From Escherichia coli phage Shin27: a stretch of 64,000 nt of DNA. The stretch's first letter is position 1. Each line of letters begins with the position of its first letter. The position numbers and the translations under genes were made by a program. Below are positions 55,456 through 64,000 of the stretch, one piece after another. The notes beneath the pieces are model-generated. The model saw nothing but the letters and a program-made list of their open reading frames with translations. It ran no database searches and was not told the origin of the DNA. The stretch lies in the sequence record LC788709.1. One strand, given 5' to 3'.

Positions 55456-55641
55456 TCAGTAATCTCCGTTGTTGTTGTATACTACCCCACTGCTCGGGAG
55501 TTCTTCTACTATCACATCCTCGAATTCTATAGAACTTCTATGGTTTCTAGTCAGTTCGATTGCTTCTTCTGCAGTTTCTGCAACGACAATAGCTGTACCA
55601 CCTAACCACAGGCCGCTATAGTTCACTTTAAAAATTTTCAT
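55456..55641 (-). CDS. hypothetical protein
   Basis: 61-aa ORF. Confidence 0.3.
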   Translation of the reverse strand: MKIFKVNYSGLWLGGTAIVVAETAEEAIELTRNHRSSIEFEDVIVEELPSSGVVYNNNGDY

Positions 55642-55659
55642 TTCGAAAATCCTACATAC

Positions 55660-55695
55660 AAGAAAACCCCAGACTACCTATTCAATAGCTGGGGT
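55660..55695 (-). terminator. terminator-like hairpin
   Basis: CCCCAG...CTGGGG stem with large loop flanked by T/A runs. Confidence 0.35.
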
Positions 55696-55705
55696 TTATT
55701 ATTAA

Positions 55706-56005
55706 TTAGATAATTTCGACAATATCCTGAGTTACAAAACCGTCGAATTCATCAGAGATACCACCTGTAAAGGTGATGCCCATAATCATTGCATCCATCT
55801 TTTTAATCTCCGAGATTTTCATGCCTGCTTTACTATTCTTATAGTATTTGCGAGGATTCCCACACATCCAACAAGAACAGATGCAAGGAGTGGTAGTGAT
55901 AATGCCTAACCGCTTAGGACTTTCTTCATGTGGGAAGACTGTCCAATACTTTTTGCGATTGTTTTTCACACGTTGCCGGTGATGGCGTCTTAATGCTCGA
56001 TCCAC
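55706..56005 (-). CDS. Cys-rich small protein
   Basis: 99-aa ORF with CICSCWMC motif. Confidence 0.35.
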   Translation of the reverse strand: MDRALRRHHRQRVKNNRKKYWTVFPHEESPKRLGIITTTPCICSCWMCGNPRKYYKNSKAGMKISEIKKMDAMIMGITFTGGISDEFDGFVTQDIVEII

Positions 56006-56086
56006 ACATTTCTCCTAAAACTTGGGAGATAAATGGAGTTTGCTCGACTACCTTGCGTAGCTGGGAGAAATCGTATCCAAACCCCA

Positions 56087-56455
56087 TTATATCGCCTGAG
56101 TAAATGTACGACTAATAACGTCGTTCTGTTGTTCACGCGTCAATGCGTTAAATCGAACAGCATAGCCAGAGACACGGATGGTCAACTGAGGATATTTTTC
56201 AGGATGTTTCTGTGCATCCAAAAGCTGATCACGGCTTAACACATTGACATTTAGGTGCTGACCACCCTCGACTTGAGGAACCACTTCCACATCTACAATG
56301 CGAAAGGCCTCAGGGTCAAAGTGAGGTGTGATACCTTCTAGATCTTCGACTAGAACTTTCTGTTTAAGTTCACCATCTTTAGAATATAGTTGAATGATCT
56401 GATTGTTATGAACAATGTTAATTACGCCAGACTTAAGACTTTGATATGCTTTCAT
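56087..56455 (-). CDS. grcA: autonomous glycyl radical cofactor (GrcA/YfiD-like)
   Basis: 122-aa ORF; C-terminal [10 protein letters not shown]...[24 protein letters not shown] matches the glycyl-radical signature RVSGY and the E. coli GrcA C-terminus as recalled. Confidence 0.7.
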
Positions 56456-56820
56456 TAGATCTCCCTGATGTTAGAATTTGGCTCAGCTTTTTGTTAACCC
56501 AGAAGCAAGATAAAAACTGGAAGGCAGGCTTGCTTATTAAGTGAATACCCGATAATCGCTCGTAGTCCGGCTTGTGGATTGATAGTCCCATTCAGTTTAA
56601 TAAGCACAGGAGCTTTGATTTTAACGTTGCGATCTTCCAGGTCTGTTGCAACTACGTGATTGCTCACGCTAAGACAATGGCTATCTAAAGTCTTAGCTTC
56701 TACATTTATACTCCTGGATAGCATGGAGTTGCAGTCTACTTCCTGCTGTCACGCCCGGCCATTTATAGAATGTGGACTCTCTTCTCAGCAGGATCTGGTA
56801 CAATGACCTGATCCTCTGTT

Positions 56821-56896
56821 TGGTAGTTAGTAGTGGATTTGAACCACTGTAGTCGCTCCGTATGAAGGAGGTGCATAACCACTCTGCCAACTAACT
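56821..56896 (-). tRNA. tRNA-Met(CAT): tRNA with CAT anticodon (Met / initiator / Ile2 not distinguishable)
   Basis: hand fold: 7-bp acceptor, T-loop TTCAAAT, anticodon loop TTCATAC, encoded CCA. Confidence 0.6.
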
Positions 56897-56902
56897 ATAA
56901 TT

Positions 56903-56978
56903 TGGTACTCCGACTTGGGATCGAACCAAGATTTGACGATTATCGGTCGCCTGTTCTAACCGTTTGAACTATCGGAGC
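56903..56978 (-). tRNA. tRNA-Ile(GAT): tRNA-Ile (GAT) candidate
   Basis: hand fold: acceptor GCTCCGA/TCGGAGT, T-loop TTCGATC, anticodon loop CCGATAA (C at position 33), CCA encoded. Confidence 0.5.
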
Positions 56979-56979
56979 A

Positions 56980-57273
56980 TTACATCATTTCGTCTAAGTA
57001 AGAAGTATACTGGTATTTAGCTTCTCCAGTTTTATCTACTTCGACTTCTGTTCTAGGTACTTTTCGTACCAGACCGTGAATCATCTTGTACTGAATAGAC
57101 TTAGATGGTTCGTGATCTTTTGGAAATACTTGTTTAACCGTTACTACTTTGAAGCCTTCACGAGGTGTTAGCACAACAACTTGATCACCTTCTTTTATTT
57201 TCCAAGACTCAGGAAATTCGTAAGTGTAGCGTTGACCACCCGTTTGGAACACGACAGAAAGATAACGTTTCAT
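56980..57273 (-). CDS. hypothetical protein
   Basis: 97-aa ORF between tRNA genes, downstream of a T5-type promoter. Confidence 0.4.
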   Translation of the reverse strand: MKRYLSVVFQTGGQRYTYEFPESWKIKEGDQVVVLTPREGFKVVTVKQVFPKDHEPSKSIQYKMIHGLVRKVPRTEVEVDKTGEAKYQYTSYLDEMM

Positions 57274-57303
57274 TTGGTTTCCCTCTCATTAATTTATGTA
57301 AAT

Positions 57304-57332
57304 ATTATAACAAGAAATAAGAGAGAAGGCAA
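57304..57332 (-). promoter_or_regulatory. T5-type early promoter (TTGCCT-N17-TATAAT)
   Basis: upstream of 56980..57273 and the first tRNAs. Confidence 0.5.
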
Positions 57333-57347
57333 ATGAATTTTTAAATT

Positions 57348-57422
57348 TGGTGCTCCCACCAGGAATCGAACCCGGTTCAGATGCTTACAAGGCAACTGCA
57401 TCGCCAGCAATGCTTTAGGAGC
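57348..57422 (-). tRNA. tRNA-Thr(TGT): tRNA-Thr (TGT)
   Basis: hand fold: acceptor GCTCCTA/TGGGAGC, D-stem GCAT/ATGC, anticodon loop CTTGTAA, T-loop TTCGATT. Confidence 0.6.
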
Positions 57423-57589
57423 AATAAACCCGTTATTTCAACGGAATTTCTTTTTCAAATACAGGAGACTTATCAGACATTACTGTCATAGCCAACTGCT
57501 GTAGAAATTCGAATGAGAGTTTTAAACGTTCTTCACCCAACTCAACCTCAACACACTTCATTTGCTTATCAACCTTTAGCTTTAGATTA

Positions 57590-57811
57590 TCAGCCCTCTT
57601 CGGGTTCTCTTTGCTCAGCTATTGCTAGCCAGTCTGGTAAAAGAAACTTAGTACGAAATTCTTCATATGTTTCTTCTGGATGAAAGCTATAGCCTTGCTT
57701 TTCATCATTTAATAAAACCGAACCGTCTTCCTGTTCATAAGCTCGGTATGTTTCACCAATAATTAAAACTCGTCTATTGGGGTTTTTATTACGAAACTCA
57801 AAAACGTCCAT
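57590..57811 (-). CDS. hypothetical protein
   Basis: 73-aa ORF. Confidence 0.35.
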   Translation of the reverse strand: MDVFEFRNKNPNRRVLIIGETYRAYEQEDGSVLLNDEKQGYSFHPEETYEEFRTKFLLPDWLAIAEQREPEEG

Positions 57812-57826
57812 AACGTTTCCTTAAGT

Positions 57827-57901
57827 TGGTGCGGGATACGAGAGTCGAACTCGTGTCTACTGGTTGGAAGCCAGTTATTCTAGCCACTGAACTAATCACG
57901 C
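57827..57901 (-). tRNA. tRNA-Gly(TCC): tRNA-Gly (TCC)
   Basis: hand fold: anticodon arm ACTGG-CTTCCAA-CCAGT, T-loop TTCGACT, CCA encoded; one acceptor mismatch. Confidence 0.6.
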
Positions 57902-57907
57902 ATAAAT

Positions 57908-57983
57908 TGGCTGGAGAAGGAGGAATCGAACCTACCATTAACGGAGTCAAAGGCCGTTGTGCTAACCGTTACACTACTCTCCA
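57908..57983 (-). tRNA. tRNA-Gln(TTG): tRNA-Gln (TTG)
   Basis: hand fold: U1-A72 acceptor, anticodon loop CTTTGAC, T-loop TTCGATT. Confidence 0.6.
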
Positions 57984-57989
57984 AGTATT

Positions 57990-58065
57990 TGGCTGGGATG
58001 CCACGGATCGAACGTGGAACCTTCGGAGTCAGAGGCCGACGATCTGCCAATTGATCTACATCCCA
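57990..58065 (-). tRNA. tRNA-Gln(CTG): tRNA-Gln (CTG)
   Basis: hand fold: U1-A72 acceptor TGGGATG/CATCCCA, D-stem GATC/GATC, anticodon loop CTCTGAC. Confidence 0.6.
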
Positions 58066-58072
58066 ATAATTT

Positions 58073-58273
58073 TTATTCTACAGGAACCGTGGCAATTGGA
58101 TCTGGTTCTTCTAGACGTTTACCATTATGGTCAACACGAATAATACCACAACCTTCACAGATTACAACAGCACCATAGCCTTCTTTAACTTCGGCTTCTG
58201 TAATCAGACCAGAAAGATCACCAGTATCTTTGCCCCACATATCGATAGAGCATTCTTTGCAGAAATCAGCCAT
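58073..58273 (-). CDS. Cys-rich zinc-ribbon-like small protein
   Basis: 66-aa ORF with CKEC and CEGC pairs. Confidence 0.35.
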   Translation of the reverse strand: MADFCKECSIDMWGKDTGDLSGLITEAEVKEGYGAVVICEGCGIIRVDHNGKRLEEPDPIATVPVE

Positions 58274-58287
58274 ATTTTAGTTCCTGT

Positions 58288-58362
58288 ATAAGTTAATTGG
58301 TGCATCCTCAGGGAATCGAACCCCGATCGTAAAGTTCGTAGCTTTACATTCTTTCCGTTGAA
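58288..58362 (-). tRNA. tRNA-Arg(ACG): tRNA-Arg (ACG)
   Basis: hand fold: anticodon arm TAAAG-CTACGAA-CTTTA, T-loop TTCGATT, CCA encoded. Confidence 0.65.
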
Positions 58363-58367
58363 ATAAG

Positions 58368-58444
58368 GACGCATATTTGGGGTGGCTAGTGGAATTCGAA
58401 TCCACATAGGCCTGATTCACAATCAGGATCATTAACCAATTATG
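58368..58444 (-). tRNA. tRNA-His(GTG): tRNA-His (GTG)
   Basis: hand fold: acceptor GTGGCTA/TAGCCAC, discriminator C, anticodon arm CCTGA-TTGTGAA-TCAGG. Confidence 0.65.
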
Positions 58445-58699
58445 ATATAGCCACAATTGAATACTATTAGGGGATGATCAGTCCTCCATTTGGCCGTCTA
58501 AGGTACCAAAGTTAGTCATTCTGCGCACAGGTTTTTCTCCTGATTCTTTATTGCGAATGCTCTCTAATAATACTCAATTGTGGCGGCTCTCCGAAACTCT
58601 TCTACTCTAGCCTTAGCAGCTTACTCCCGAACGCATGTCGGGAAAGTCTTACTAAGAACATCAAATAGCACCGTTACACTTTGAGCCATTAATGTATCA

Positions 58700-58835
58700 A
58701 GAAGCAGAAGGACTTGAACCTTCACGAGATAGACCATTTATCTCAGCCTCGTTTTCGGGTATCTTATGAGGAGTGGATGTTCCCCTTACGCCCTTTAGGA
58801 AGCCCCGTCTACCGATTCCGGCATACTTCAAGATT
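58700..58835 (-). ncRNA. tRNA-like element of atypical length (no canonical cloverleaf found)
   Basis: contains GGTTCAAGTCC T-arm and GAATCGGTAGA D-loop-like motifs but ~130 nt and no pairing acceptor stem by hand. Confidence 0.25.
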
Positions 58836-58925
58836 TGGCAGAAGATAATGGAGTCGAACCATCACCGTATCACTACAGCGGGCCGGTTTTCAAGACCGGT
58901 TACGTACCACTACGTCCTATCTTCT
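58836..58925 (-). tRNA. tRNA-Ser(TGA): tRNA-Ser (TGA), class II
   Basis: hand fold: perfect acceptor AGAAGAT/ATCTTCT, anticodon arm CCGGT-CTTGAAA-ACCGG, long variable arm, CCA encoded. Confidence 0.7.
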
Positions 58926-59152
58926 AGTATTTGTTCTACTTCTTTTCGAAGATCTTCTGGATTATCATGATAGGTTGTTTGCCATACATAAATAACTCCA
59001 GTATCACATGCTTTATCAAATATTTCTCGCTCAGGAAGTTTCATGCCCATTGCGTACTTGATATGAAACTCTAAAGCTTGCTTACTAGGGAATGTATGAC
59101 GCAAGAAAAACTTATCATTAACTAAATCCAACATCATAATCTTGACTTTCAT
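58910..59152 (-). CDS. hypothetical protein
   Basis: 80-aa ORF; 3' end overlaps tRNA-Ser by ~16 nt. Confidence 0.35.
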   Translation of the reverse strand: MKVKIMMLDLVNDKFFLRHTFPSKQALEFHIKYAMGMKLPEREIFDKACDTGVIYVWQTTYHDNPEDLRKEVEQILEDRT

Positions 59153-59173
59153 TTATATTCCCTATTAGTTGTT

Positions 59174-59266
59174 TGGCGGAAGAAGAGAGATTCGAACTCT
59201 CAAGCCTGCTTTAACAAGTCAGCCACTTTCCAAGCGGTTTTCGTCACCTAATCGATTTGCTCTTCC
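59174..59266 (-). tRNA. tRNA-Ser(GGA): tRNA-Ser (GGA) candidate, class II
   Basis: hand fold: acceptor GGAAGAG/TTCTTCC, anticodon loop TTGGAAA, long variable arm, T-loop TTCGAAT. Confidence 0.55.
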
Positions 59267-59440
59267 GTAGATCTCAGGATTAAATCATAAACTTCATTAG
59301 CAGATACTGGAAGTATGAGATTATACATCTTTTGGTCATACCTCTGACCATACTCTATAAACACATACTCTTTAGTTAATGTATTAACAGCTAACCAGAT
59401 ATCAGTTATAGGAGTTTTCATCATGAGTTAATCCAATGTT

Positions 59441-59521
59441 TGGTAGGGATGGAGGGACTCGAACCCACACCCGAAGACTAGAACCTAAATCTAGCGCGTC
59501 TGCCAATTTCGCCACATCCCC
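59441..59521 (-). tRNA. tRNA-Leu(TAG): tRNA-Leu (TAG)
   Basis: hand fold: acceptor GGGGATG/CATCCCT, D-loop AAATTGGCAGA, anticodon arm CTAGA-TTTAGGT-TCTAG, extended variable region. Confidence 0.6.
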
Positions 59522-59528
59522 ATTTTAT

Positions 59529-59747
59529 TTAGTTAGAAATAAATAGTAACCCTGCAACAATGGAACCTATGCCACTGAATACCATTATCAGCATAGCTTC
59601 TAAGCTGATAAAGCGGACGTTATATGGAGCGCCCCAAGAATAATCAGTAAAGAAAGTTTTCTTTTCTTTAGCTAAATCTTTAATAGTTCTAAAATAGATA
59701 GCTAGTGCTAAAGCTACAAGAACTACAGAGGCTGCTAAGAATACCAT
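59529..59747 (-). CDS. small membrane protein
   Basis: 72-aa ORF with two TM helices. Confidence 0.35.
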   Translation of the reverse strand: MVFLAASVVLVALALAIYFRTIKDLAKEKKTFFTDYSWGAPYNVRFISLEAMLIMVFSGIGSIVAGLLFISN

Positions 59748-59766
59748 ATTATTTCCTTAATTTGTT

Positions 59767-59842
59767 TGGTGGAGTCACTCAGAATTGAACTGAGTTCCAC
59801 TGCTTGCAAGGCAGTAAGTTTAACCAAATAACCTATGACCCC
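59767..59842 (-). tRNA. tRNA-Ala(TGC): tRNA-Ala (TGC)
   Basis: hand fold: G3-U70 in acceptor, anticodon arm ACTGC-CTTGCAA-GCAGT. Confidence 0.65.
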
Positions 59843-59847
59843 GAATT

Positions 59848-59926
59848 TGGTGGAGAATAAGAGATTCGAACTCTTCTGATATCCTCGGTGCAAGCGAGGT
59901 GTCCACTCCAAGCAGACCCATTCCCC
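59848..59926 (-). tRNA. tRNA-Ala(TGC): second tRNA with TGC anticodon (Ala-like, 7-nt variable loop)
   Basis: hand fold: acceptor GGGGAAT/ATTCTCC with G3-U70, anticodon arm CCTCG-CTTGCAC-CGAGG, T-loop TTCGAAT. Confidence 0.5.
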
Positions 59927-59929
59927 AAA

Positions 59930-60165
59930 ATCTTTAAGTTTACTAAGGCTATTAGCTCGGTGTGCGTATTACCCTCAGACATTAGCCAGTAGAGGATAAC
60001 CGCTCTTCACAAACCCGATACACTATTCAGTTGCCGCTGAATCTAGTGGACTAATCTAGAACTTATTGCAAAGTATCCCCCGCCATTAAGGGTCTACTTG
60101 CAATTGTGCTTTTTGGCAGCCAGTCCTAGGTCGAGCTAATACCTTAGTGAACTTTGATGAGGATT
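59930..60165 (-). ncRNA. ORF-free ~235-nt segment in tRNA array (candidate stable small RNA)
   Basis: no ORF >= 60 aa on either strand, lies downstream of promoter 60189-60217 and upstream of tRNAs. Confidence 0.2.
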
Positions 60166-60188
60166 TCTCCTCATCAATTTATATAAAT

Positions 60189-60217
60189 ATTATAACAAGA
60201 AATTAAGCATCAAGCAA
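60189..60217 (-). promoter_or_regulatory. T5-type early promoter (TTGCTT-N17-TATAAT)
   Basis: upstream of the ORF-free segment and tRNAs 59767-59926. Confidence 0.55.
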
Positions 60218-60569
60218 GTACATTTTTAGCGATTTCTTGTATTTCCTTAACGTCACTAACGAAAAGGTAATCAGAGCTTCCAGAGTGCATACTCTGCATA
60301 ACCACACCATCCTCTGGTGCATCTTCTTTCAAAGTAATACCTAACCAGAACTCGGCAAAACTAGGTGTTACCTCACCTTGACTTGCCTTGAATACATCGG
60401 CTTCTGTGATCTCCTGACCAGTAGAGAGTCCCATGTACGGTACGTTCAGATCAATATCTTTGTAAAACTCAGCTAGATCTTGTTCGAAGTCCCAACCTTT
60501 AGAGATAGCGAACTCCATTGTTACATGACCGAAATAGCCTTGAACCTTGCTTGATAATTGCATTTGCAA
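60210..60569 (-). CDS. hypothetical acidic protein
   Basis: 119-aa ORF. Confidence 0.4.
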   Translation of the reverse strand: MQMQLSSKVQGYFGHVTMEFAISKGWDFEQDLAEFYKDIDLNVPYMGLSTGQEITEADVFKASQGEVTPSFAEFWLGITLKEDAPEDGVVMQSMHSGSSDYLFVSDVKEIQEIAKNVLA

Positions 60570-60588
60570 TTCCTTATTTTGAGTTAAT

Positions 60589-60662
60589 TGGTACTCGGTG
60601 ATAGAATCGAACTATCGCAACCGCCGTGTAAAGACGGGGTTCTCCCATTAAACTAACCGAGC
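60589..60662 (-). tRNA. tRNA-Val(TAC): tRNA-Val (TAC)
   Basis: hand fold: anticodon arm CCGTC-TTTACAC-GGCGG, T-arm GATAG-TTCGATT-CTATC. Confidence 0.65.
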
Positions 60663-60666
60663 AATT

Positions 60667-60744
60667 TGGTGGATTGCCTGGGATTCGAACCCAGAACTGA
60701 CGGATTAAAGGTCCGCTACTCTTATCCGGTTGAGCTAGCAATCC
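60667..60744 (-). tRNA. tRNA-Lys(TTT): tRNA-Lys (TTT)
   Basis: hand fold: perfect acceptor GGATTGC/GCAATCC, anticodon loop CCTTTAA (C at position 33), T-loop TTCGAAT. Confidence 0.6.
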
Positions 60745-61208
60745 AATTTTTCTACTAATAATTTAAAAGCATCTAGTACAGGTACTTCAAACCATTCCCC
60801 GGATACTCTGTAGTCTTTGAGAAGATTATGTAACTCTTTCTCCGTACGTCTTTTATCTGACGAAAATCTGAAATGGTGTAGCTTGTAGTCTCTATTAGGT
60901 GAATAGGTTTGATAACTTGCTAACCTCTCATTTACATCTATAGTCATACCTATTTTATACATGCCTGGCCATGCGGGATTACCGATTACATATACAAAAC
61001 CTTCCGTTATAGGTATTTTATGTTCTCTTTTGTATTTTAAGAGATTTAAAGCTGCCATTCGATAACAGAATTTAAATTCTGAAGTTTTTAACTTACCCTC
61101 TTTACCAGAAATTTCATTATATTTGCTCATATAAGCTCTTATAAGCTTATCATCTATAATAAAATTATCAGGAAGGTTTAAGGCAGCTAAAACTTTATTA
61201 ATTAGCAT
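60735..61208 (-). CDS. T5orf172 / GIY-YIG-like domain protein
   Basis: 157-aa ORF; GFVYVIGNP...GMYKIGMT segment resembles T5orf172-type domain. Confidence 0.4.
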   Translation of the reverse strand: MLINKVLAALNLPDNFIIDDKLIRAYMSKYNEISGKEGKLKTSEFKFCYRMAALNLLKYKREHKIPITEGFVYVIGNPAWPGMYKIGMTIDVNERLASYQTYSPNRDYKLHHFRFSSDKRRTEKELHNLLKDYRVSGEWFEVPVLDAFKLLVEKLDC

Positions 61209-61383
61209 AAACTTCCTTAATAGAGTAGACTTTCAAGTAAGGATGATTAATACCAAATTCCGCCATTACTTCATTTTCATCTTTACCATAATGGGCTAGT
61301 GGATACTTCTTACGATCTTTACTAGAACGTAAATCACTTACTTTTAAACGAAATAATTTCATTTCGAAATCCTTCTATTAAAT

Positions 61384-61461
61384 TGGAAGCGGGTGCAGGA
61401 ATCGAACCTACCTCTTTCTAGCTTATGAGACTAGCGATCTCTACCAGAGATCTAACCCGCA
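61384..61461 (-). tRNA. tRNA-Met(CAT): tRNA with CAT anticodon and unpaired 1:72 position (initiator-like feature)
   Basis: hand fold: D-stem GATC/GATC, anticodon arm CTAGT-CTCATAA-GCTAG, T-loop TTCGATT, CCA encoded. Confidence 0.5.
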
Positions 61462-61467
61462 ATTGTT

Positions 61468-61545
61468 TGGTCTCCGTGGGAGGATTTGAACCCCCGACCC
61501 TATCGCCCCAAACGAAACGCTCTGGCCAAACTGAGCTACACGGAG
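61468..61545 (-). tRNA. tRNA-Pro(TGG): tRNA-Pro (TGG)
   Basis: hand fold: perfect acceptor CTCCGTG/CACGGAG, D-arm GCTC/GAGC, anticodon loop TTTGGGG, T-loop TTCAAAT. Confidence 0.65.
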
Positions 61546-61577
61546 AATATTCTTTGTTAACTCACTTTATAAAATAT

Positions 61578-61606
61578 ATTATACAGAGAATTAAGCTAAA
61601 TAGCAA
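61578..61606 (-). promoter_or_regulatory. T5-type early promoter (TTGCTA-N17-TATAAT)
   Basis: upstream of tRNA-Pro and the CAT tRNA. Confidence 0.55.
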
Positions 61607-61624
61607 CTACATTTTTTAATAAAT

Positions 61625-61855
61625 TTACTTATTGCGTAGGCCACCTGGAGGGTTCAAGCCCCACGGCTGACAAAGAAGTTTGCGAGACTTCTCTTAAACG
61701 CCAGAATAGACCCGCCGATCTATCGGAACCTACTCAATAAGTAAACTTTCGTTTACCTACACCTACCTGGTCGGGAGGATTTTCAGCGACTAGAACCGGC
61801 CGGAAACTCATCGCCTTGTTTATCTAGGAGTCCGTTCTCTAGGAAGCAGAAACCT
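61625..61855 (-). ncRNA. ORF-free ~230-nt segment in tRNA array (candidate stable small RNA)
   Basis: no ORF, between tRNA-Gly(GCC) and promoter 61578-61606. Confidence 0.2.
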
Positions 61856-61860
61856 AAATT

Positions 61861-61934
61861 TGGTGCGGTCGGAGGGAATCGAACCCTCAACTTCTGGTTG
61901 GCAACCAAAAATTATACCTTTTAACTACGAACGC
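61861..61934 (-). tRNA. tRNA-Gly(GCC): tRNA-Gly (GCC)
   Basis: hand fold: anticodon arm TTTGG-TTGCCAA-CCAGA, T-loop TTCGATT, CCA encoded. Confidence 0.6.
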
Positions 61935-61944
61935 ATAATAAGTC

Positions 61945-62060
61945 AATCTAGGCAGGACTTGAACCTGCTATCACTTGTGCGGATTTACGAGAACCATTCT
62001 TTCACTCGAATCGAACGAGCTTCTACCCTCGGCAAGCTGGTGTCCCCTCTCCACCACGCT
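61945..62060 (-). ncRNA. tRNA-like fragments (possible tRNA pseudogene or atypical RNA)
   Basis: two T-arm-like motifs (GCAGG-TTCAAGT-CCTGC and GCTCG-TTCGATT-CGAG) without a complete cloverleaf by hand. Confidence 0.2.
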
Positions 62061-62147
62061 AGAATGATAATTAGTGCCTGCTCCTTTGAATCAAGAAGTC
62101 CACCCCGGACTTTGGGTCTTTGCAGTACATCACGCTGCTCTGATGTT

Positions 62148-62224
62148 TGGTACACCCACTAGGACTTGAACCTAGAACCTACCGCTTAAGAGGCGGTAGC
62201 TCTAACCAATTGAGCTATGGATGT
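62148..62224 (-). tRNA. tRNA-Lys(CTT): tRNA-Lys (CTT)
   Basis: hand fold: D-arm GCTC-AATTGGTTA-GAGC, anticodon arm ACCGC-CTCTTAA-GCGGT, T-arm CTAGG-TTCAAGT-CCTAG. Confidence 0.6.
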
Positions 62225-62230
62225 ATAATT

Positions 62231-62305
62231 TGGCGGTACTAAGGGTAATCGAAACCCTACCTCTCCCGTGACAGGGGAGTATCCTAACCGTTAGACTATA
62301 GTACC
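62231..62305 (-). tRNA. tRNA-Asp(GTC): tRNA-Asp (GTC)
   Basis: hand fold: perfect acceptor GGTACTA/TAGTACC, anticodon arm CTCCC-CTGTCAC-GGGAG. Confidence 0.65.
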
Positions 62306-62877
62306 TTTAACTTTTTAAGTTCTTTAGGATTGCCTCCTAAAGAAGTGTATCTTTTACGCAACCCATTATCTGAATAACTTAACTTTCTCCCTGCACCTGA
62401 CCAGCCTAGCTCTCTTACTGTAACCTCGATTATTTCTTTAGTTATAGAGATATCTTTTGGTTTATGTGAAGAGCACTCCTGACATTTTTCAGCTTTTAAA
62501 GAAATAGCTTTACCACAATCCTTACAACAATTATCATGGTTTAGTTTACTAAATCCTTTATCTTTTAAAGTCTTTTCTAGATGCTGCTCTTTTGTGAGCA
62601 CTTGTAAGTTATTAAGACCCCAATAAGTAATGTCTGTGTTAATATGGTCAACTTCTAGTTCAGAGTCTAGACTTGGTAATTTCTTAAATGCACATGCTAA
62701 AATCCTATGTACACCGGTATTTCTCTGTTGACCATTTTTATGGAGACGTATAGATAAGTATCCGTAATTACTGGTTATTTGGGTTAGTATTTTGTTTGAT
62801 TTGATACTAAATACTAACCCATCCAAACTTACTAAGTACTCCTCAAACCCTGGAATGGGTAAGGATATTCCGTGCAT
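62296..62877 (-). CDS. HNH homing endonuclease
   Basis: 193-aa ORF; NUMOD4-like N-terminus, HNH core VDHINTD...NNLQVLTKEQH; abuts tRNA-Asp. Confidence 0.6.
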   Translation of the reverse strand: MHGISLPIPGFEEYLVSLDGLVFSIKSNKILTQITSNYGYLSIRLHKNGQQRNTGVHRILACAFKKLPSLDSELEVDHINTDITYWGLNNLQVLTKEQHLEKTLKDKGFSKLNHDNCCKDCGKAISLKAEKCQECSSHKPKDISITKEIIEVTVRELGWSGAGRKLSYSDNGLRKRYTSLGGNPKELKKLKVL

Positions 62878-62880
62878 AAT

Positions 62881-63066
62881 TTACTCAGTTTTGAGTTTTT
62901 CGATAGCTTCCTCAACCTCTTTTAGAGCTTCACGACGCTCTACTTGACCTTGAAGTTCTTCAAGAAGTTCAGCTTTCAGAGCCTTAATAATATTACCACG
63001 AACCTTAATATTATTAATCAGATTATCACGATCAGCTTCTAGTCGAGCAATTGCACGAGTTGTCAT
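62881..63066 (-). CDS. small coiled-coil protein
   Basis: 61-aa ORF. Confidence 0.3.
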   Translation of the reverse strand: MTTRAIARLEADRDNLINNIKVRGNIIKALKAELLEELQGQVERREALKEVEEAIEKLKTE

Positions 63067-63169
63067 ATCTATTTCCTCAGTTGTTAATGAAAAATGGTAT
63101 CTGTGACTGAATTCGATATCAGCAATGATAGCTGGTTGGCTACCGGTTTACTTAACTCTACACAGAATA

Positions 63170-63252
63170 TGGCGGGCCGTGTAGGATTCGAACCTACGTT
63201 GTCTTTCGACATGGATTAACAGTCCACCGCCAAACCGCTTGGCTAACGACCC
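63170..63252 (-). tRNA. tRNA-Asn(GTT): class II-like tRNA (Tyr-type architecture) with GTT (Asn) anticodon
   Basis: hand fold: 3-bp D-stem GCC/GGC, anticodon arm GTGGA-CTGTTAA-TCCAT, 13-nt variable arm, T-arm GTAGG-TTCGAAT-CCTAC, discriminator G. Confidence 0.5.
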
Positions 63253-63259
63253 TAAAATT

Positions 63260-63335
63260 TGGACGACCGCATGAGATTCGAACTCACATAAGGAGGTTTT
63301 GCAGGCCTCCGCCTAAGCCATTCAGCCAACGGTCG
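63260..63335 (-). tRNA. tRNA-Cys(GCA): tRNA-Cys (GCA)
   Basis: hand fold: anticodon loop CTGCAAA, T-loop TTCGAAT, CCA encoded. Confidence 0.55.
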
Positions 63336-63513
63336 ATTTATCTTGCTTTTCGAGATTAGTAAACTCTAGATCTTTAGAATGTCCTATAGATCTAGCATAA
63401 TAGCCATCTCCAGCATCGTAGCCTGATTTACCGCACTCACACATCTTAAACTCTCTATAATGAGTGAAAATATGTTCAGAACCACAACACTTAAATTTAA
63501 CTAACATTTTCAT
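63322..63513 (-). CDS. Cys-rich zinc-ribbon-like small protein
   Basis: 63-aa ORF with CCGSEH and CECG motifs. Confidence 0.35.
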   Translation of the reverse strand: MKMLVKFKCCGSEHIFTHYREFKMCECGKSGYDAGDGYYARSIGHSKDLEFTNLEKQDKSTVG

Positions 63514-63752
63514 TTAACACGCTCCGGTAAATCTTCGAGTTTATATTGAGTAGCCACATTAGCAGCATCTAGTAACAAACCCATATGTTTAAGAATCCTA
63601 GTGATAGCCTCGCCTTCTGCTTCTTCTACAAAAGTGCGTAGTTGAATGAAGTCAATACCCCCATCCATACCAGAGAAAATGTTTAGTAAGCGAAGCATTA
63701 CCAGCTTACGTTCTTTCAATTCTTGTTCTGTCATGTTGCTTCTCCAGTTCAA
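63510..63752 (-). CDS. hypothetical protein
   Basis: 80-aa ORF directly downstream of a T5-type promoter. Confidence 0.4.
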   Translation of the reverse strand: MNWRSNMTEQELKERKLVMLRLLNIFSGMDGGIDFIQLRTFVEEAEGEAITRILKHMGLLLDAANVATQYKLEDLPERVK

Positions 63753-63763
63753 TTTATGTAATA

Positions 63764-63792
63764 ATTATACAGAACTTTAAGCGGTTAAGCAA
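63764..63792 (-). promoter_or_regulatory. T5-type early promoter (TTGCTT-N17-TATAAT)
   Basis: upstream of 63510..63752. Confidence 0.55.
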
Positions 63793-63801
63793 CTACATTT
63801 T

Positions 63802-64000
63802 TTAAGAATTTGATGCCTTTCTTTTTCTTCTTATATTTCCACGTTAACGGGTTCTGTCGATTATGAACGCTTGAGATCTTTGTCTCGTCAAAGTTCTTCA
63901 AAACCATGTAATCACAGGCCAACTGTTCTAGTGGGATGTGATCTCCATCAAAAGCATAAACATAAGGCTGTTGACTAGCACGATAATGATAGACTTTGTT
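63802..64000 (-). CDS. hypothetical protein, 3' portion only (gene start beyond window)
   Basis: open minus-strand frame running to window edge, stop near 63802. Confidence 0.3.

What the first reader, a model, noticed from the sequence alone, without database searches (positions are those of the whole stretch)
56821..63335. Minus-strand array of at least 22 tRNA genes, all encoding CCA, interleaved with promoters and small ORFs
Hand folding gives CAT (x2), GAT, TGT, TCC, TTG, CTG, ACG, GTG, TGA, GGA, TAG, TGC (x2), TAC, TTT, CTT, TGG, GCC, GTC, GTT and GCA anticodons. The array continues toward the window edge. Phage tRNA sets can compensate codon bias and counter host anticodon nucleases, so the exact repertoire matters.
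Basis: partly seen in the sequence, partly recalled or inferred. Interest (0 to 1): 0.5.

Follow-up and report, generated by a model that had tools for sequence, protein, structure and literature searches.

The report
T5-like phage tRNA gene cluster
This is the well-known tRNA gene cluster of a T5-type E. coli phage: 22 tRNA genes mixed with promoters, small genes and stable RNAs of unknown function. It lets the phage keep translating on its own codon usage and despite host enzymes that cut tRNAs, so the finding is real but ordinary.

Summary
ARAGORN finds 21 tRNA genes on the minus strand at 56821-63335 and none elsewhere in the window. The 22nd, Ser(GGA) at 59174-59266, fails default predictors. 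It is still a conserved cloverleaf with encoded CCA, and phage T5 carries a tRNA-Ser2(GGA) at the syntenic position.

The window is 100% identical to E. coli phage Wa28 (Epseptimavirus, T5-like), whose GenBank record annotates the 21 tRNAs. Eight more tRNAs lie beyond the window edge. Four strong T5-type early promoters, two homing-endonuclease genes and small ORFs are interleaved.

The function is established in close relatives. The tRNAs match AT-rich codon usage and replace host tRNAs cut by PARIS, retron-Eco7 and PrrC.

Novelty: already known.

Side observations:
- The universal U33 is replaced by C33 in tRNA-Lys(UUU) and tRNA-Ile(GAU). C33 tRNA-Ile is widespread in phage tRNA arrays.
- RNA1 is a Leu-type tRNA body whose anticodon loop is replaced by a covarying arm of about 50 nt.

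The parts
56821..56896 (-). tRNA-Met(CAU), elongator type
   Evidence: ARAGORN. Rfam 51.5 bits. 100% identical to T5 tRNAM(CAU). CCA encoded.
56903..56978 (-). tRNA-Ile(GAU) with non-canonical C33 (anticodon loop CCGAUAA)
   Evidence: C33 allele also found in Enterobacter, Klebsiella and Salmonella T5-like phages.
56980..57273 (-). Small ORF, 97 aa, unknown function (phrog_4760)
57278..57352 (-). T5-type early promoter (homolog of T5 P11). TTGCCT-17-TATAAT with an A-rich upstream region.
   Evidence: 92% identical to the annotated T5 P11. Consensus scan gives 10 of 12 matches.
57348..57422 (-). tRNA-Thr(UGU). Anticodon stem-loop identical to T5's (U36AAGCA, i.e. G39 where E. coli has U39).
57590..57811 (-). 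Small ORF, 73 aa (phrog_5598)
57827..57901 (-). tRNA-Gly(UCC)
   Evidence: 65.5 bits.
57908..57983 (-). tRNA-Gln(UUG)
57990..58065 (-). tRNA-Gln(CUG)
58073..58273 (-). Small ORF, 66 aa (phrog_2210)
58298..58372 (-). tRNA-Arg(ACG). Absent at this position in T5.
58378..58454 (-). tRNA-His(GUG). Nucleotide -1 is T, so no G-1 is encoded.
   Evidence: 100% identical to T5 tRNA-His.
58456..58580 (-). Non-coding module at the position of T5 RNAIII, with a different sequence
   Evidence: No BLAST match to T5 RNAIII or to the other fetched loci. Folds into a long closing stem.
58581..58687 (-). Homolog of T5 RNAI (stable RNA, function unknown)
   Evidence: 90.7% identical to T5 rnaI. 4 compensatory pairs in 22 distinct sequences.
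58688..58832 (-). Homolog of T5 RNA1, a tRNA-like stable RNA. It has a Leu-type class II tRNA body with the anticodon loop replaced by an arm of about 50 nt. No CCA is encoded.
   Evidence: 99.4% of cells paired, 12 of 36 pairs compensatory, 0 of 500 shuffles reach this..
58836..58925 (-). tRNA-Ser(UGA)
   Evidence: Rfam tRNA 32.1 bits..
58910..59152 (-). Small ORF, 80 aa (phrog_32148). Its 3' end overlaps tRNA-Ser(UGA).
59174..59266 (-). Non-canonical tRNA-Ser(GGA)-like gene with encoded CCA. It is not annotated in the Wa28 record.
   Evidence: Missed by ARAGORN at default settings and found at -ps80. tRNA-Sec model 23.8 bits. Conserved, with compensatory changes against T5 tRNAS2(GGA).
59248..59424 (-). 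Small ORF, 58 aa. Its last 19 nt overlap the Ser(GGA) gene.
59441..59521 (-). tRNA-Leu(UAG)
59529..59747 (-). Small ORF, 72 aa (phrog_15739)
59767..59842 (-). tRNA-Ala(UGC) copy 1, with G3:U70
59848..59926 (-). tRNA-Ala(UGC) copy 2, divergent, 79 nt, with G3:U70
   Evidence: Rfam 38.1 bits in E-value mode only..
59927..60160 (-). Homolog of T5 RNA2H (stable RNA, function unknown). About 215 nt, closed by a long-range stem of about 22 bp.
   Evidence: 60 predicted pairs, 10 of them compensatory, in 24 distinct sequences.
60163..60238 (-). T5-type early promoter (homolog of T5 P13b)
   Evidence: 90.8% identical to the annotated T5 promoter.
60210..60563 (-). ORF, 117 aa (phrog_7572, unknown function)
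60589..60662 (-). tRNA-Val(UAC)
60667..60744 (-). tRNA-Lys(UUU) with non-canonical C33 (loop CCUUUAA; U36AAUCC41)
   Evidence: The same allele occurs in 4 IMG/VR T5-like contigs. No match in E. coli genomes. Compared with lysT.
60735..61208 (-). ORF, 157 aa, with a T5orf172/MUG113 domain. I read this from background knowledge as GIY-YIG-related and a putative homing endonuclease. Its 3' end overlaps tRNA-Lys(UUU).
   Evidence: Pfam PF13455 9.6e-19 and PF10544 5e-15. PHROGs.
61198..61362 (-). Small ORF, 54 aa
61384..61461 (-). tRNA-Met(CAU), annotated as initiator fMet in T5
   Evidence: 100% identical to T5 tRNAfM. A 1:72 mismatch is visible.
61468..61545 (-). tRNA-Pro(UGG)
61562..61626 (-). 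T5-type early promoter (homolog of T5 P13a). TTGCTA-17-TATAAT.
   Evidence: 92.3% identical.
61633..61733 (-). Homolog of T5 RNAIV (stable RNA, function unknown)
   Evidence: 94% identical. 36 predicted pairs, 3 of them compensatory.
61861..61934 (-). tRNA-Gly(GCC). Absent from T5.
61942..62066 (-). Homolog of T5 RNA2, a tRNA-like stable RNA with acceptor-like and T-arm-like helices and no CCA
   Evidence: 89.6% identical.. Relaxed ARAGORN places two overlapping pseudo-tRNA calls inside it.
62148..62224 (-). tRNA-Lys(CUU). Absent from T5.
   Evidence: 69.6 bits.
62231..62305 (-). tRNA-Asp(GUC)
62296..62877 (-). HNH homing endonuclease (NUMOD4 + HNH_3). Its 3' end overlaps tRNA-Asp.
   Evidence: Pfam. 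PHROG 59 at 8.5e-22.
62881..63066 (-). Small ORF, 61 aa
63095..63167 (-). Homolog of T5 RNA3 (putative tRNA-like RNA, a degenerate cloverleaf, no CCA)
   Evidence: 97% identical..
63170..63252 (-). tRNA-Asn(GUU), 83 nt, with an unusual 12-nt variable region. Anticodon stem-loop motif U36AAUCC, as in E. coli asnT.
63260..63335 (-). tRNA-Cys(GCA)
63738..63812 (-). T5-type early promoter (homolog of T5 P14b) that heads the transcription unit entering the array
   Evidence: 89.3% identical.

Best explanation
The feature is the tRNA-rich early region of a T5-like phage. The window is identical to E. coli phage Wa28 (Epseptimavirus, Demerecviridae).

Expression (inferred). Host sigma-70 RNA polymerase starts at four very strong T5-type early promoters. 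It makes long minus-strand transcripts that carry tRNAs, small mRNAs and structured 'stable RNAs' together. Host RNase P and 3' trimming enzymes then release the tRNAs. The encoded CCA and the A-rich trailers fit this route.

Repertoire (shown). The 22 genes in the window, plus 8 just beyond it, cover all 20 amino acids. The set favours U34 anticodons, which read the A-ending codons the AT-rich phage prefers.

Function (shown in relatives, inferred here). The set does two things at once. It fits the tRNA supply to phage codon usage. It also makes phage translation independent of host tRNAs, so infection survives host defences that cut specific tRNAs. These are PARIS AriB (Lys-UUU, Thr-UGU, Asn-GUU), PrrC (Lys) and retron-Eco7 PtuAB (Tyr, whose gene lies just outside the window). 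The protection works because the phage copies differ in the anticodon stem-loop or are made in excess. It was shown for T5 and SP15 and is inferred for Wa28.

Mosaic make-up (inferred). Homing endonuclease genes inside the array, one HNH and one T5orf172-type, are proposed to explain why tRNA alleles and modules differ between otherwise near-identical phages.
For: Identity:
- The region is 100% identical over 7.5 kb to phage Wa28 LC788710.1, and 645 phage records match it.
- The GenBank record annotates the same 21 tRNAs plus 8 more downstream.
- Gene order matches the curated T5 record, including promoters P11, P13b, P13a and P14b and six of the seven stable RNAs annotated in the corresponding T5 stretch.

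tRNA reality:
-.

Codon fit:
- The A-ending cognate codons of all 10 U34 tRNAs serving four- or six-codon families and Gln are over-represented in 80 window ORFs (16,823 codons), compared with 30 E. coli K-12 genes.
- Ratios: GCA 1.4, GGA 2.5, CUA 6.3, UUA 2.8, CCA 1.9, CAA 1.5, AGA 8.3, UCA 1.25, ACA 2.05, GUA 2.0.

Defence role:
- T5 tRNA-Lys(UUU), Thr(UGU) and Asn(GUU) together inhibit PARIS. AriB needs U36AAUC|A41 (PMC11464382, PMC12409363).
- Wa28 tRNA-Thr has the same anticodon stem-loop as T5, with G39.
- Wa28 tRNA-Lys has C41, the change the paper calls Mut2, plus C33.
- SP15 tRNA-Tyr and tRNA-Lys from the same region rescue phage from retron-Eco7 and PrrC170 (PMC11555353).
- At least 7 different anticodon-stem alleles of tRNA-Lys(UUU) occur among T5-like loci. 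This fits diversifying pressure.
- The phage tRNAs are only 62-68% identical to their E. coli counterparts, and the Lys gene has no E. coli match.

Homing endonucleases:
-.
- Mosaic coverage in 3-7 pieces in close relatives.
Against: - Nothing here measures expression, processing, charging or nuclease resistance of the Wa28 tRNAs.
- Wa28 tRNA-Lys(UUU) keeps U39 and C40, and tRNA-Asn keeps the full E. coli-like UAAUCC motif. PARIS resistance of this particular set is therefore not assured.
- The region is dispensable in the laboratory for T5 and SP15 (8-kb deletion mutants; PMC11464382, PMC11555353).
- Several tRNAs read codons that are not enriched (AAA 0.86, GAA 0.98, CAG 0.72, GGC 0.42). Codon fit alone does not explain the set.
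- The T5 record notes that several of these tRNAs, including Ser2(GGA), did not work as amber suppressors after anticodon replacement.
- The consensus promoter scan finds no more sites than shuffled sequence gives (19 against 18.3). The promoter assignment rests on homology to T5.
Confidence: 0.85

Rival explanations
1. Codon-usage compensation only. On this view the array exists solely to supply tRNAs for codons that the AT-rich phage uses more than its 51% GC host does. Any anti-defence effect would be incidental.
For: The A-ending cognate codons of all 10 U34 tRNAs are enriched 1.25- to 8.3-fold relative to the E. coli sample. The window is about 40% GC.
Against: - The set covers all 20 amino acids, including tRNAs whose cognate codons are not enriched (AAA 0.86, GAA 0.98, CAG 0.72, GGC 0.42).
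- Anticodon stems differ from the host's and are highly polymorphic at one locus (7 Lys-UUU alleles).
- Direct experiments show rescue from PARIS, retron-Eco7 and PrrC170 by tRNAs from this region in T5 and SP15.
Confidence: 0.15
2. Selfish mosaic. On this view the array is mainly cargo and target of homing endonucleases. The endonucleases spread themselves and the flanking tRNA alleles between co-infecting T5-like phages, as SegB does in the T4 tRNA region. Repertoire differences would then reflect endonuclease traffic rather than selection on translation.
For: - An HNH/NUMOD4 gene (62296-62877) and a T5orf172-type gene (60735-61208) sit inside the array, and both overlap the 3' ends of tRNA genes.
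- T5 has hegA, hegC, hegD and hegE in and next to its tRNA region.
- Relatives align in 3-7 pieces at 94-98% identity.
- The C33 Lys and C33 Ile alleles assort independently.
- T4 SegB precedent (PMC2330249, abstract).
Against: - Endonuclease traffic explains the mosaicism but not why full cloverleaves, identity elements such as G3:U70 in both Ala genes, and encoded CCA are kept in all 22 genes.
- It also does not explain the experimentally shown benefit of the tRNAs.
Confidence: 0.2
3. Part of the array is not translational. On this view Ser(GGA), RNA1, RNA2 and RNA3 are tRNA-derived RNAs that are never charged. They would act as decoys, regulators or processing signals, or be decaying pseudogenes.
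For: - RNA1, RNA2 and RNA3 lack CCA and lack a conserved anticodon.
- The RNA1 covariance model's next-best hits are tRNA-Leu genes.
- Ser(GGA) fails default predictors. Its T5 homolog gave no amber suppression.
Against: - Strong covariation argues against simple decay: RNA1 has 12-14 compensatory pairs and 99% of cells paired.
- Ser(GGA) keeps CCA, a UUGGAAA anticodon loop and compensated stems. This fits a working tRNA.
- No decoy activity has been shown for any of them.
Confidence: 0.3

Closest known systems
Phage T5 tRNA gene region (NC_005859, curated annotation)
   Same: - Same strand, order and spacing of tRNA genes.
- Met, fMet and His tRNAs are 100% identical. Thr and Val are 96% identical.
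- Promoters P11, P13b, P13a and P14b are 89-92% identical.
- Stable RNAs RNA1, RNAI, RNA2H, RNAIV, RNA2 and RNA3 are present at 78-97% identity.
- HNH endonuclease genes are interspersed.
   Different: - Wa28 adds Arg(ACG), Gly(GCC), Lys(CUU) and a second Ala(UGC).
- It carries different alleles of Lys(UUU), Ile(GAU), Asn, Asp, Pro and Ser(GGA).
- It has no RNAIII homolog. An unrelated 125-nt module sits in its place.
- Its endonuclease genes sit at different positions.
tRNA-rich region (TRR) of T5 and SP15 described as an anti-defence locus (Azam et al. 2024, PMC11555353; Burman et al. 2024, PMC11464382; Belukhina et al. 2025, PMC12409363)
   Same: - It is the same genomic region, about 8 kb, dispensable in the laboratory and driven by strong promoters.
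- It contains Lys(UUU), Thr(UGU) and Asn(GUU), the tRNAs that counter PARIS.
- The Thr anticodon stem-loop is identical to T5's.
   Different: - The Wa28 Lys(UUU) allele differs from both the tested T5 allele (UAAACC) and the SP15 allele (UAAUCG). It reads UAAUCC and has C33.
- The Wa28 Asn allele keeps the E. coli-like motif.
- tRNA-Tyr, the retron-Eco7 antidote, lies outside the window.
- None of these Wa28 alleles has been tested.
Phage T4 tRNA cluster with segB and the stable RNAs rnaC and rnaD (NC_000866)
   Same: It is a compact same-strand tRNA cluster that contains a homing endonuclease gene and tRNA-like stable RNAs of unknown function.
   Different: - T4 has only 8 tRNAs.
- The RNA1 covariance model finds no match in the T4 region that holds rnaC and rnaD. 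The stable RNAs are therefore analogous, with no homology detected.
Mycobacteriophage tRNA sets with anticodon-loop escape mutations (van den Berg et al. 2023, PMC10264068)
   Same: The concept is the same: phage tRNAs differ from host tRNAs in the anticodon loop at positions that matter for anticodon nucleases.
   Different: - The hosts and nucleases differ (VapC-type).
- A text search of that paper finds no mention of position 33 or of tRNA-Ile.

Membership tests
Bacterial-type tRNA genes (Rfam RF00005 / ARAGORN) | Cloverleaf that scores above the curated threshold | tested here: met
   21 genes are called by ARAGORN. 20 reach the Rfam gathering score, and the second Ala scores 38.1 bits against a 29-bit threshold with laxer filters.
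Bacterial-type tRNA genes (Rfam RF00005 / ARAGORN) | The same criterion applied to the 22nd gene, Ser(GGA), at 59174-59266 | tested here: inconclusive
   Not called at default settings. Only 23.8 bits against tRNA-Sec. Called at -ps80 together with 3 opposite-strand false calls. It has a conserved cloverleaf with compensatory changes and encoded CCA.
Bacterial-type tRNA genes (Rfam RF00005 / ARAGORN) | 7-nt anticodon loop with U33 | tested here: not met
   Met by 20 of 22 genes. tRNA-Lys(UUU) and tRNA-Ile(GAU) have C33. The row is marked not met for those two genes only.
Bacterial-type tRNA genes (Rfam RF00005 / ARAGORN) | Expression, processing and aminoacylation | not testable with these tools
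   Needs tRNA-seq or acid-gel Northern blots of infected cells.
T5-like (Demerecviridae) tRNA-rich early region | Sequence identity and synteny with the T5-group tRNA region | tested here: met
   100% identical to Wa28. Element-by-element mapping onto T5.
T5-like (Demerecviridae) tRNA-rich early region | T5-type strong early promoters heading mixed tRNA/mRNA units | tested here: met
   Four stretches are 89-92% identical to the annotated P11, P13b, P13a and P14b. Two of them also score 10 of 12 in the consensus scan. Activity was not measured.
T5-like (Demerecviridae) tRNA-rich early region | Interspersed stable RNAs (RNA1, RNAI, RNAIII, RNA2H, RNAIV, RNA2, RNA3) | tested here: met
   Six of seven are present at 78-97% identity. 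RNAIII is replaced by an unrelated module.
T5-like (Demerecviridae) tRNA-rich early region | Interspersed homing endonuclease genes | tested here: met
   An HNH/NUMOD4 ORF and a T5orf172/MUG113 ORF.
Nuclease-resistant anti-defence tRNAs (PARIS-type escape) | Substitution in the AriB motif U36AAUC|A41 relative to the host tRNA | tested here: inconclusive
   Thr(UGU) has G39, as in T5, so the criterion is met. Lys(UUU) has only C41, which the paper reports as partially protective, plus C33. Asn(GUU) has the same motif as E. coli asnT.
Nuclease-resistant anti-defence tRNAs (PARIS-type escape) | Demonstrated resistance to cleavage, or rescue of infection | not testable with these tools
   Shown only for the T5 and SP15 alleles (PMC11464382, PMC12409363, PMC11555353).
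Codon-compensating phage tRNAs | Cognate codons used more by the phage than by the host | tested here: met
   10 of 10 U34 tRNAs from four- or six-codon families and Gln are enriched. Not met for Lys-UUU, Glu-UUC, Gln-CUG and Gly-GCC. The host sample is only 30 genes.

The most novel reading that the evidence does not exclude
The array may hold anti-nuclease devices that have not been described.

(1) U33 to C. This change occurs in tRNA-Lys(UUU) and tRNA-Ile(GAU). C33 tRNA-Ile(GAU) appears to be a phage- or array-specific class. It gave 37 distinct sequences in at least 21 clusters across unrelated viral contigs. The change sits exactly at the bond PrrC cuts, 3' of nucleotide 33. It could protect against PrrC-like nucleases and against a still unknown nuclease specific for tRNA-Ile.

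(2) RNA1. This Leu-type tRNA body has its anticodon loop replaced by a conserved, covarying arm of about 50 nt. It could be a tRNA mimic that occupies tRNA-targeting defence proteins.
Probability: 0.25. Interest if true: 0.6.

Novelty: already known. Interest (0 to 1): 0.2.

Why it matters
As a discovery it adds little. The identical sequence is in GenBank with 21 of these tRNAs annotated. The T5 tRNA region is curated in the reference T5 record, and since 2024 it has been shown experimentally to be an anti-defence locus.

Its value is practical. The exact allele set predicts which tRNA-targeting defences this phage can bypass. Wa28's Lys, Thr and Asn alleles differ from the tested T5 and SP15 ones, which matters when choosing therapeutic or biocontrol phages.

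The side observations could be more interesting. C33 anticodon loops are widespread in phage tRNA-Ile. About 900 nt of the array is stable RNA of unknown function, most of it conserved and covarying. Both are cheap to test and bear on the arms race between phages and anticodon nucleases.

Tried and rejected
- **Host origin of the Lys tRNA.** A sensitive BLAST search of 5,426 E. coli genomes found no match. I dropped the idea of recent capture from E. coli.
- **Rfam on the non-coding gaps.** An E-value search up to 5 over 55500-64000 returned only tRNA-related hits and noise: plastid UTR models that are antisense images of tRNAs, and snoRNAs at E near 1-4. No 6S RNA, riboswitch or known sRNA matched, so the idea that RNA2H is 6S-like has no support.
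- **RNA1 as an intron-containing tRNA.** Rejected. The would-be anticodon region is not conserved between alleles, no CCA is encoded, and the insert is a covarying two-helix arm.
- **Homology between T5-type RNA1 and T4 rnaC/rnaD.** The covariance model gave no hit in the T4 region.
- **Thermodynamic stability as evidence for RNA1 and Ser(GGA).** Z-scores of -0.4 to -0.7 are uninformative. Covariation was used instead.
- **Relaxed ARAGORN thresholds.** At 80% there were 3 opposite-strand false calls, and at 60% there were 71 calls in total. Neither is usable as evidence on its own.
- **Plus-strand ORFs antisense to the tRNAs** (for example 57826-58143 and 61860-62162). I treat these as mechanical artefacts. 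They have TTG starts, no annotation, and they overlap tRNA genes.
- **Consensus promoter scan.** The count equals the shuffled expectation, so I did not use it alone.
- **Two file-reading errors of my own.** Searches failed because I assumed one locus per file. A first pattern was too short.

Full report

Yes. ARAGORN run on the whole 64-kb window reports 21 tRNA genes. All lie on the minus strand between 56821 and 63335, and there are none anywhere else.

Rfam's tRNA model independently confirms 20 of them at its curated threshold, at 32-70 bits. It confirms the divergent second tRNA-Ala at 38.1 bits once the speed filters are relaxed. Every one of the 21 ends in an encoded CCA. Both Ala genes carry the G3:U70 pair.

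**2. The 22nd gene, Ser(GGA)**

This is the only contested item. It lies at 59174-59266 on the minus strand.

Evidence against it from predictors:
- ARAGORN rejects it at default stringency.
- Rfam gives only 23.8 bits (E 0.37), and to the related tRNA-Sec model.
- Lowering ARAGORN's threshold to 80% recovers it. The same setting produces three calls on the wrong strand, so that alone proves little.

Comparative evidence in its favour is better:
- Homologs at 87-97% identity sit at the same place in every T5-like locus I fetched.
- All of them keep GCCA at the 3' end and the anticodon loop UUGGAAA.
- Against phage T5's annotated tRNA-Ser2(GGA), the acceptor, D, anticodon and T stems all show compensatory substitutions.

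I count it as a conserved, non-canonical tRNA gene whose function is unproven. The T5 record itself notes that an amber-suppressor derivative did not work.

**3. What the sequence is**

The 7.5 kb around the array is 100% identical to E. coli phage Wa28 (LC788710.1). Wa28 belongs to Epseptimavirus in the Demerecviridae and came from sewage in Japan. Altogether 645 phage records match, mostly Salmonella, Escherichia and Klebsiella T5-like phages.

The GenBank record annotates exactly the 21 tRNAs. It places eight more just past the window edge: Phe, Trp, Glu, Tyr, Leu-UAA, a third CAU tRNA, Ser-GCU and Arg-UCU. No tRNA lies in 63336-64000, so 'continues toward the window edge' is true of the genome but not of the window. 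With Ser(GGA), the phage encodes 30 tRNA genes covering all 20 amino acids.

**4. Anatomy**

I mapped the richly curated T5 reference record onto the window. The 6,515-nt array divides as follows:

| Component | Length | Share |
|---|---|---|
| tRNA genes | 1,718 nt | 26% |
| Homologous or positionally equivalent to T5 'stable RNA with unknown functions' | 903 nt | 14% |
| Small ORFs | 3,184 nt | 49% |
| Remainder, mostly promoters and spacers | 766 nt | 12% |

*Promoters.* Four stretches are 89-92% identical to T5 promoters:
- P14b at 63738-63812
- P13a at 61562-61626
- P13b at 60163-60238
- P11 at 57278-57352

They split the array into units in which tRNAs, stable RNAs and small mRNAs share a transcript.

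*Spacing and trailers.* tRNAs often come in pairs or triplets 4-8 nt apart. CCA is followed by an A-rich trailer, CCAAAY in 17 of 22. I infer from general knowledge of E. coli tRNA maturation that host RNase P and 3' exonucleases process them.

*ORFs.* Two ORFs look like homing endonucleases:
- 62296-62877 has NUMOD4 and HNH domains.
- 60735-61208 has T5orf172/MUG113 domains, which I read from background knowledge as GIY-YIG-related.

Both overlap the 3' end of a tRNA gene. The other ORFs match phage families of unknown function.

- RNA1 at 58688-58832
- RNAI at 58581-58687
- RNA2H at 59927-60160
- RNAIV at 61633-61733
- RNA2 at 61942-62066
- RNA3 at 63095-63167

T5's RNAIII is replaced by an unrelated 125-nt module at 58456-58580.

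**5. How it most likely works**

*Codon fit.* I called 80 ORFs (16,823 codons) in the window and compared them with 30 E. coli K-12 genes. For four- and six-codon families the phage tRNA set favours U34 anticodons. The A-ending cognate codon of all ten such tRNAs is enriched in the phage: GCA 1.4x, GGA 2.5x, CUA 6.3x, UUA 2.8x, CCA 1.9x, CAA 1.5x, AGA 8.3x, UCA 1.25x, ACA 2.05x and GUA 2.0x. The fit is not complete. AAA, GAA, CAG and GGC are not enriched, yet they have dedicated tRNAs.

*Defence evasion.* This has been demonstrated for the same region in close relatives.
- T5 deletion mutants lacking it become sensitive to PARIS.
- T5 tRNA-Lys(UUU), and later Thr(UGU) and Asn(GUU), restore infection.
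- AriB cuts E. coli tRNA-Lys at U36AAUC|A41, and the T5 copy escapes through U39A and A41C (PMC11464382, PMC12409363).
- T5 and SP15 lacking the 'tRNA-rich region' are blocked by retron-Eco7, which degrades tRNA-Tyr.
- SP15 tRNA-Lys rescues phages from PrrC170 (PMC11555353).

*Comparison with E. coli K-12 genes*:
- tRNA-Lys(UUU) reads UAAUCC. It has only the partially protective A41C change, plus C33.
- tRNA-Asn keeps the E. coli-like UAAUCC.
- The phage tRNAs are only 62-68% identical to the host's.

Across 32 T5-like loci I found at least 7 anticodon-stem alleles of tRNA-Lys(UUU), and multiple alleles for most other isoacceptors. That is what an arms race combined with endonuclease-driven exchange would produce. 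Protection by the Wa28 alleles themselves is inferred, not shown.

**6. Rivals**

- Codon compensation alone does not explain the full 20-amino-acid coverage, the allele diversity or the published rescue experiments.
- A purely selfish homing-endonuclease mosaic explains the patchwork. Relatives align in 3-7 pieces, and the C33 alleles assort independently. It does not explain why intact cloverleaves and CCA are kept.
- Some members may not be translational tRNAs at all. That remains open for Ser(GGA), RNA1, RNA2 and RNA3.

**7. Side observation: C33**

U33 is almost universal in tRNAs. Here tRNA-Lys(UUU) has the loop CCUUUAA and tRNA-Ile(GAU) has CCGAUAA, so both carry C33.

Within T5-like phages:
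- Among 514 tRNA calls (217 distinct sequences) in T5-like loci, non-U33 occurs only in these two isoacceptors, apart from one spurious call.
- The C33 Lys allele recurs in four IMG/VR T5-like contigs.
- ~174-kb viral contigs carry the same anticodon stem with U33.

Across viral contigs:
- I scanned with the Ile anticodon arm, leaving position 33 free.
- ARAGORN on all 237 viral loci held by then, including the T5-like loci fetched earlier, called 120 tRNA-Ile(GAU) genes: 59 with C33, 61 with U33, and none with A or G.
- The C33 genes form 37 distinct sequences in at least 21 clusters at 85% identity.
- They come from contigs of very different sizes, in loci with a median of 14 tRNAs.

In bacterial genomes:
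- I scanned 185,579 species' genomes with the C33 14-mer.
- Only 2 of 120 matches fell inside a tRNA, and both were in loci with 20-24 tRNAs.

C33 tRNA-Ile therefore looks like a phage or tRNA-array speciality. PrrC cuts tRNA-Lys 3' of U33 (PMC2610378), so the change sits at a known scissile bond. The yeast gamma-toxin tolerates U33C (PMC2275089), so protection is not a given.

I found no paper discussing C33 in phage tRNAs. The library is incomplete, so I do not claim priority.

**8. Side observation: the stable RNAs are real structures**

*RNA1.*
- Nine sequences give 99.4% of cells paired, with 12 of 36 pairs showing changes on both sides. Zero of 500 shuffles reach this, and slid controls give 39-49% pairing.
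- Thirty distinct sequences give 14 compensatory pairs.
- It has an acceptor stem, a Leu/Tyr-type D arm (GCCGGAAUCGGUAGACGG), a long variable hairpin and a canonical T arm.
- The anticodon loop is replaced by a two-helix extension of about 50 nt, ending in a nearly invariant loop, ACAUCCAC (ACAUCCGC in T5). No CCA is encoded.
- A covariance model built from it finds phage tRNA-Leu genes as its next-best hits at 23-30 bits. It finds nothing in the T4 region that holds rnaC and rnaD.
- In IMG/VR, RNA1 occurs in contigs of 96-122 kb (plus one 14.5-kb fragment), the size of T5-like genomes.

*Others.* RNA2H is a structure of about 215 nt closed by a 22-bp stem, with 10 compensatory pairs. RNAI, RNAIV, RNA2 and RNA3 show 3-5 each.

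Their function is unknown to me, and the T5 record labels them 'unknown functions'. No Rfam family matches.

**9. Verdict**

The finding is correct and well described, but it rediscovers a known, annotated and experimentally characterised locus. Novelty is 'already known' and interest is low. The residual interest lies in the C33 anticodon loops and the tRNA-derived stable RNAs. Both are testable with simple cleavage and plating assays.

Noticed in passing
window 60667-60744 (-) and 56903-56978 (-): tRNA-Lys(UUU) and tRNA-Ile(GAU) carry C33 in place of the near-universal U33 (loops CCUUUAA and CCGAUAA). In T5-like loci these are the only isoacceptors with a non-U33. In IMG/VR, C33 tRNA-Ile(GAU) is common and diverse: 59 of 120 genes and 37 distinct sequences. 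It was almost absent from bacterial genome hits.
   Followed up: partly
window 58688-58832 (-): Homolog of T5 RNA1. It is a Leu-type class II tRNA body with the anticodon loop replaced by a covarying two-helix arm of about 50 nt that ends in a nearly invariant loop, ACAUCCAC. No CCA is encoded. Covariation is strong. It was found in IMG/VR contigs of 96-122 kb (plus one 14.5-kb fragment), the size of T5-like genomes.
   Followed up: partly
window 59927-60160 (-): Homolog of T5 RNA2H. It lies directly downstream of a strong promoter, is about 215 nt long and is closed by a long-range stem of about 22 bp. It has 10 compensatory pairs in 24 sequences and no Rfam match.
   Followed up: partly
window 58581-58687, 61633-61733, 61942-62066, 63095-63167 (-): Homologs of T5 RNAI, RNAIV, RNA2 (tRNA-like) and RNA3 (degenerate tRNA-like). 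None is annotated in the Wa28 GenBank record. Each shows 3-5 compensatory pairs.
   Followed up: partly
window 58456-58580 (-): A 125-nt non-coding module sits where T5 has RNAIII. The interior sequence is unrelated. By eye, both are closed by the same inverted repeat (CAAUUGA...UUCAAUUG), as if the interior were an exchangeable cassette.
   Followed up: no
window 62296-62877 (-) and 60735-61208 (-): An HNH/NUMOD4 gene and a T5orf172/MUG113 gene, both putative homing endonucleases, lie inside the array. Each overlaps the 3' end of a tRNA gene (Asp and Lys-UUU). Both are annotated only as 'hypothetical protein' in the Wa28 record.
   Followed up: partly
window 63170-63252 (-): tRNA-Asn(GUU) is 83 nt long with a 12-nt variable region, which is unusual for a class I tRNA. 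This allele is shared by 9 T5-like loci.
   Followed up: no
window 58378-58455 (-): The nucleotide before tRNA-His position 1 is T, so the G-1 found in E. coli tRNA-His is not encoded, although C73 is kept. The gene is identical in T5.
   Followed up: no
window 57433-57561 (-): A 42-aa ORF between tRNA-Thr and the next annotated gene is not annotated in Wa28. By eye it resembles T5.059. A terminator-like hairpin sits at 57429-57445.
   Followed up: no
window 61734-61860 and 62067-62147 (-): Two further non-coding spacers have patchy distribution. The 81-nt spacer is 97.5% identical in a Klebsiella phage (L016) but absent from most Escherichia and Salmonella relatives. This suggests mobile non-coding modules.
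   Followed up: no
L003-L006, L010, L012, L014 (IMG/VR contigs, several of 146-176 kb): These non-T5 viral contigs carry a tRNA-Lys(UUU) with the same anticodon stem as Wa28 (GCGGA/UCCGU), but with U33 and without an encoded CCA.
   Followed up: no
L013 6734-6859 and 7256-7384 (+) (332-kb IMG/VR contig): Two elements of about 126-129 nt inside a 32-tRNA array are missed by ARAGORN but match the RNA1 model (15.8 and 28 bits). They have a class II D arm and a T arm. Expanded tRNA-like RNAs may be a general feature of phage tRNA arrays.
   Followed up: no
L001 19518-21252 (Wa28 record 66078-67812, beyond the window): Just past the remaining tRNA genes the phage carries pnuC and nadR (NAD salvage genes).
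   Followed up: no
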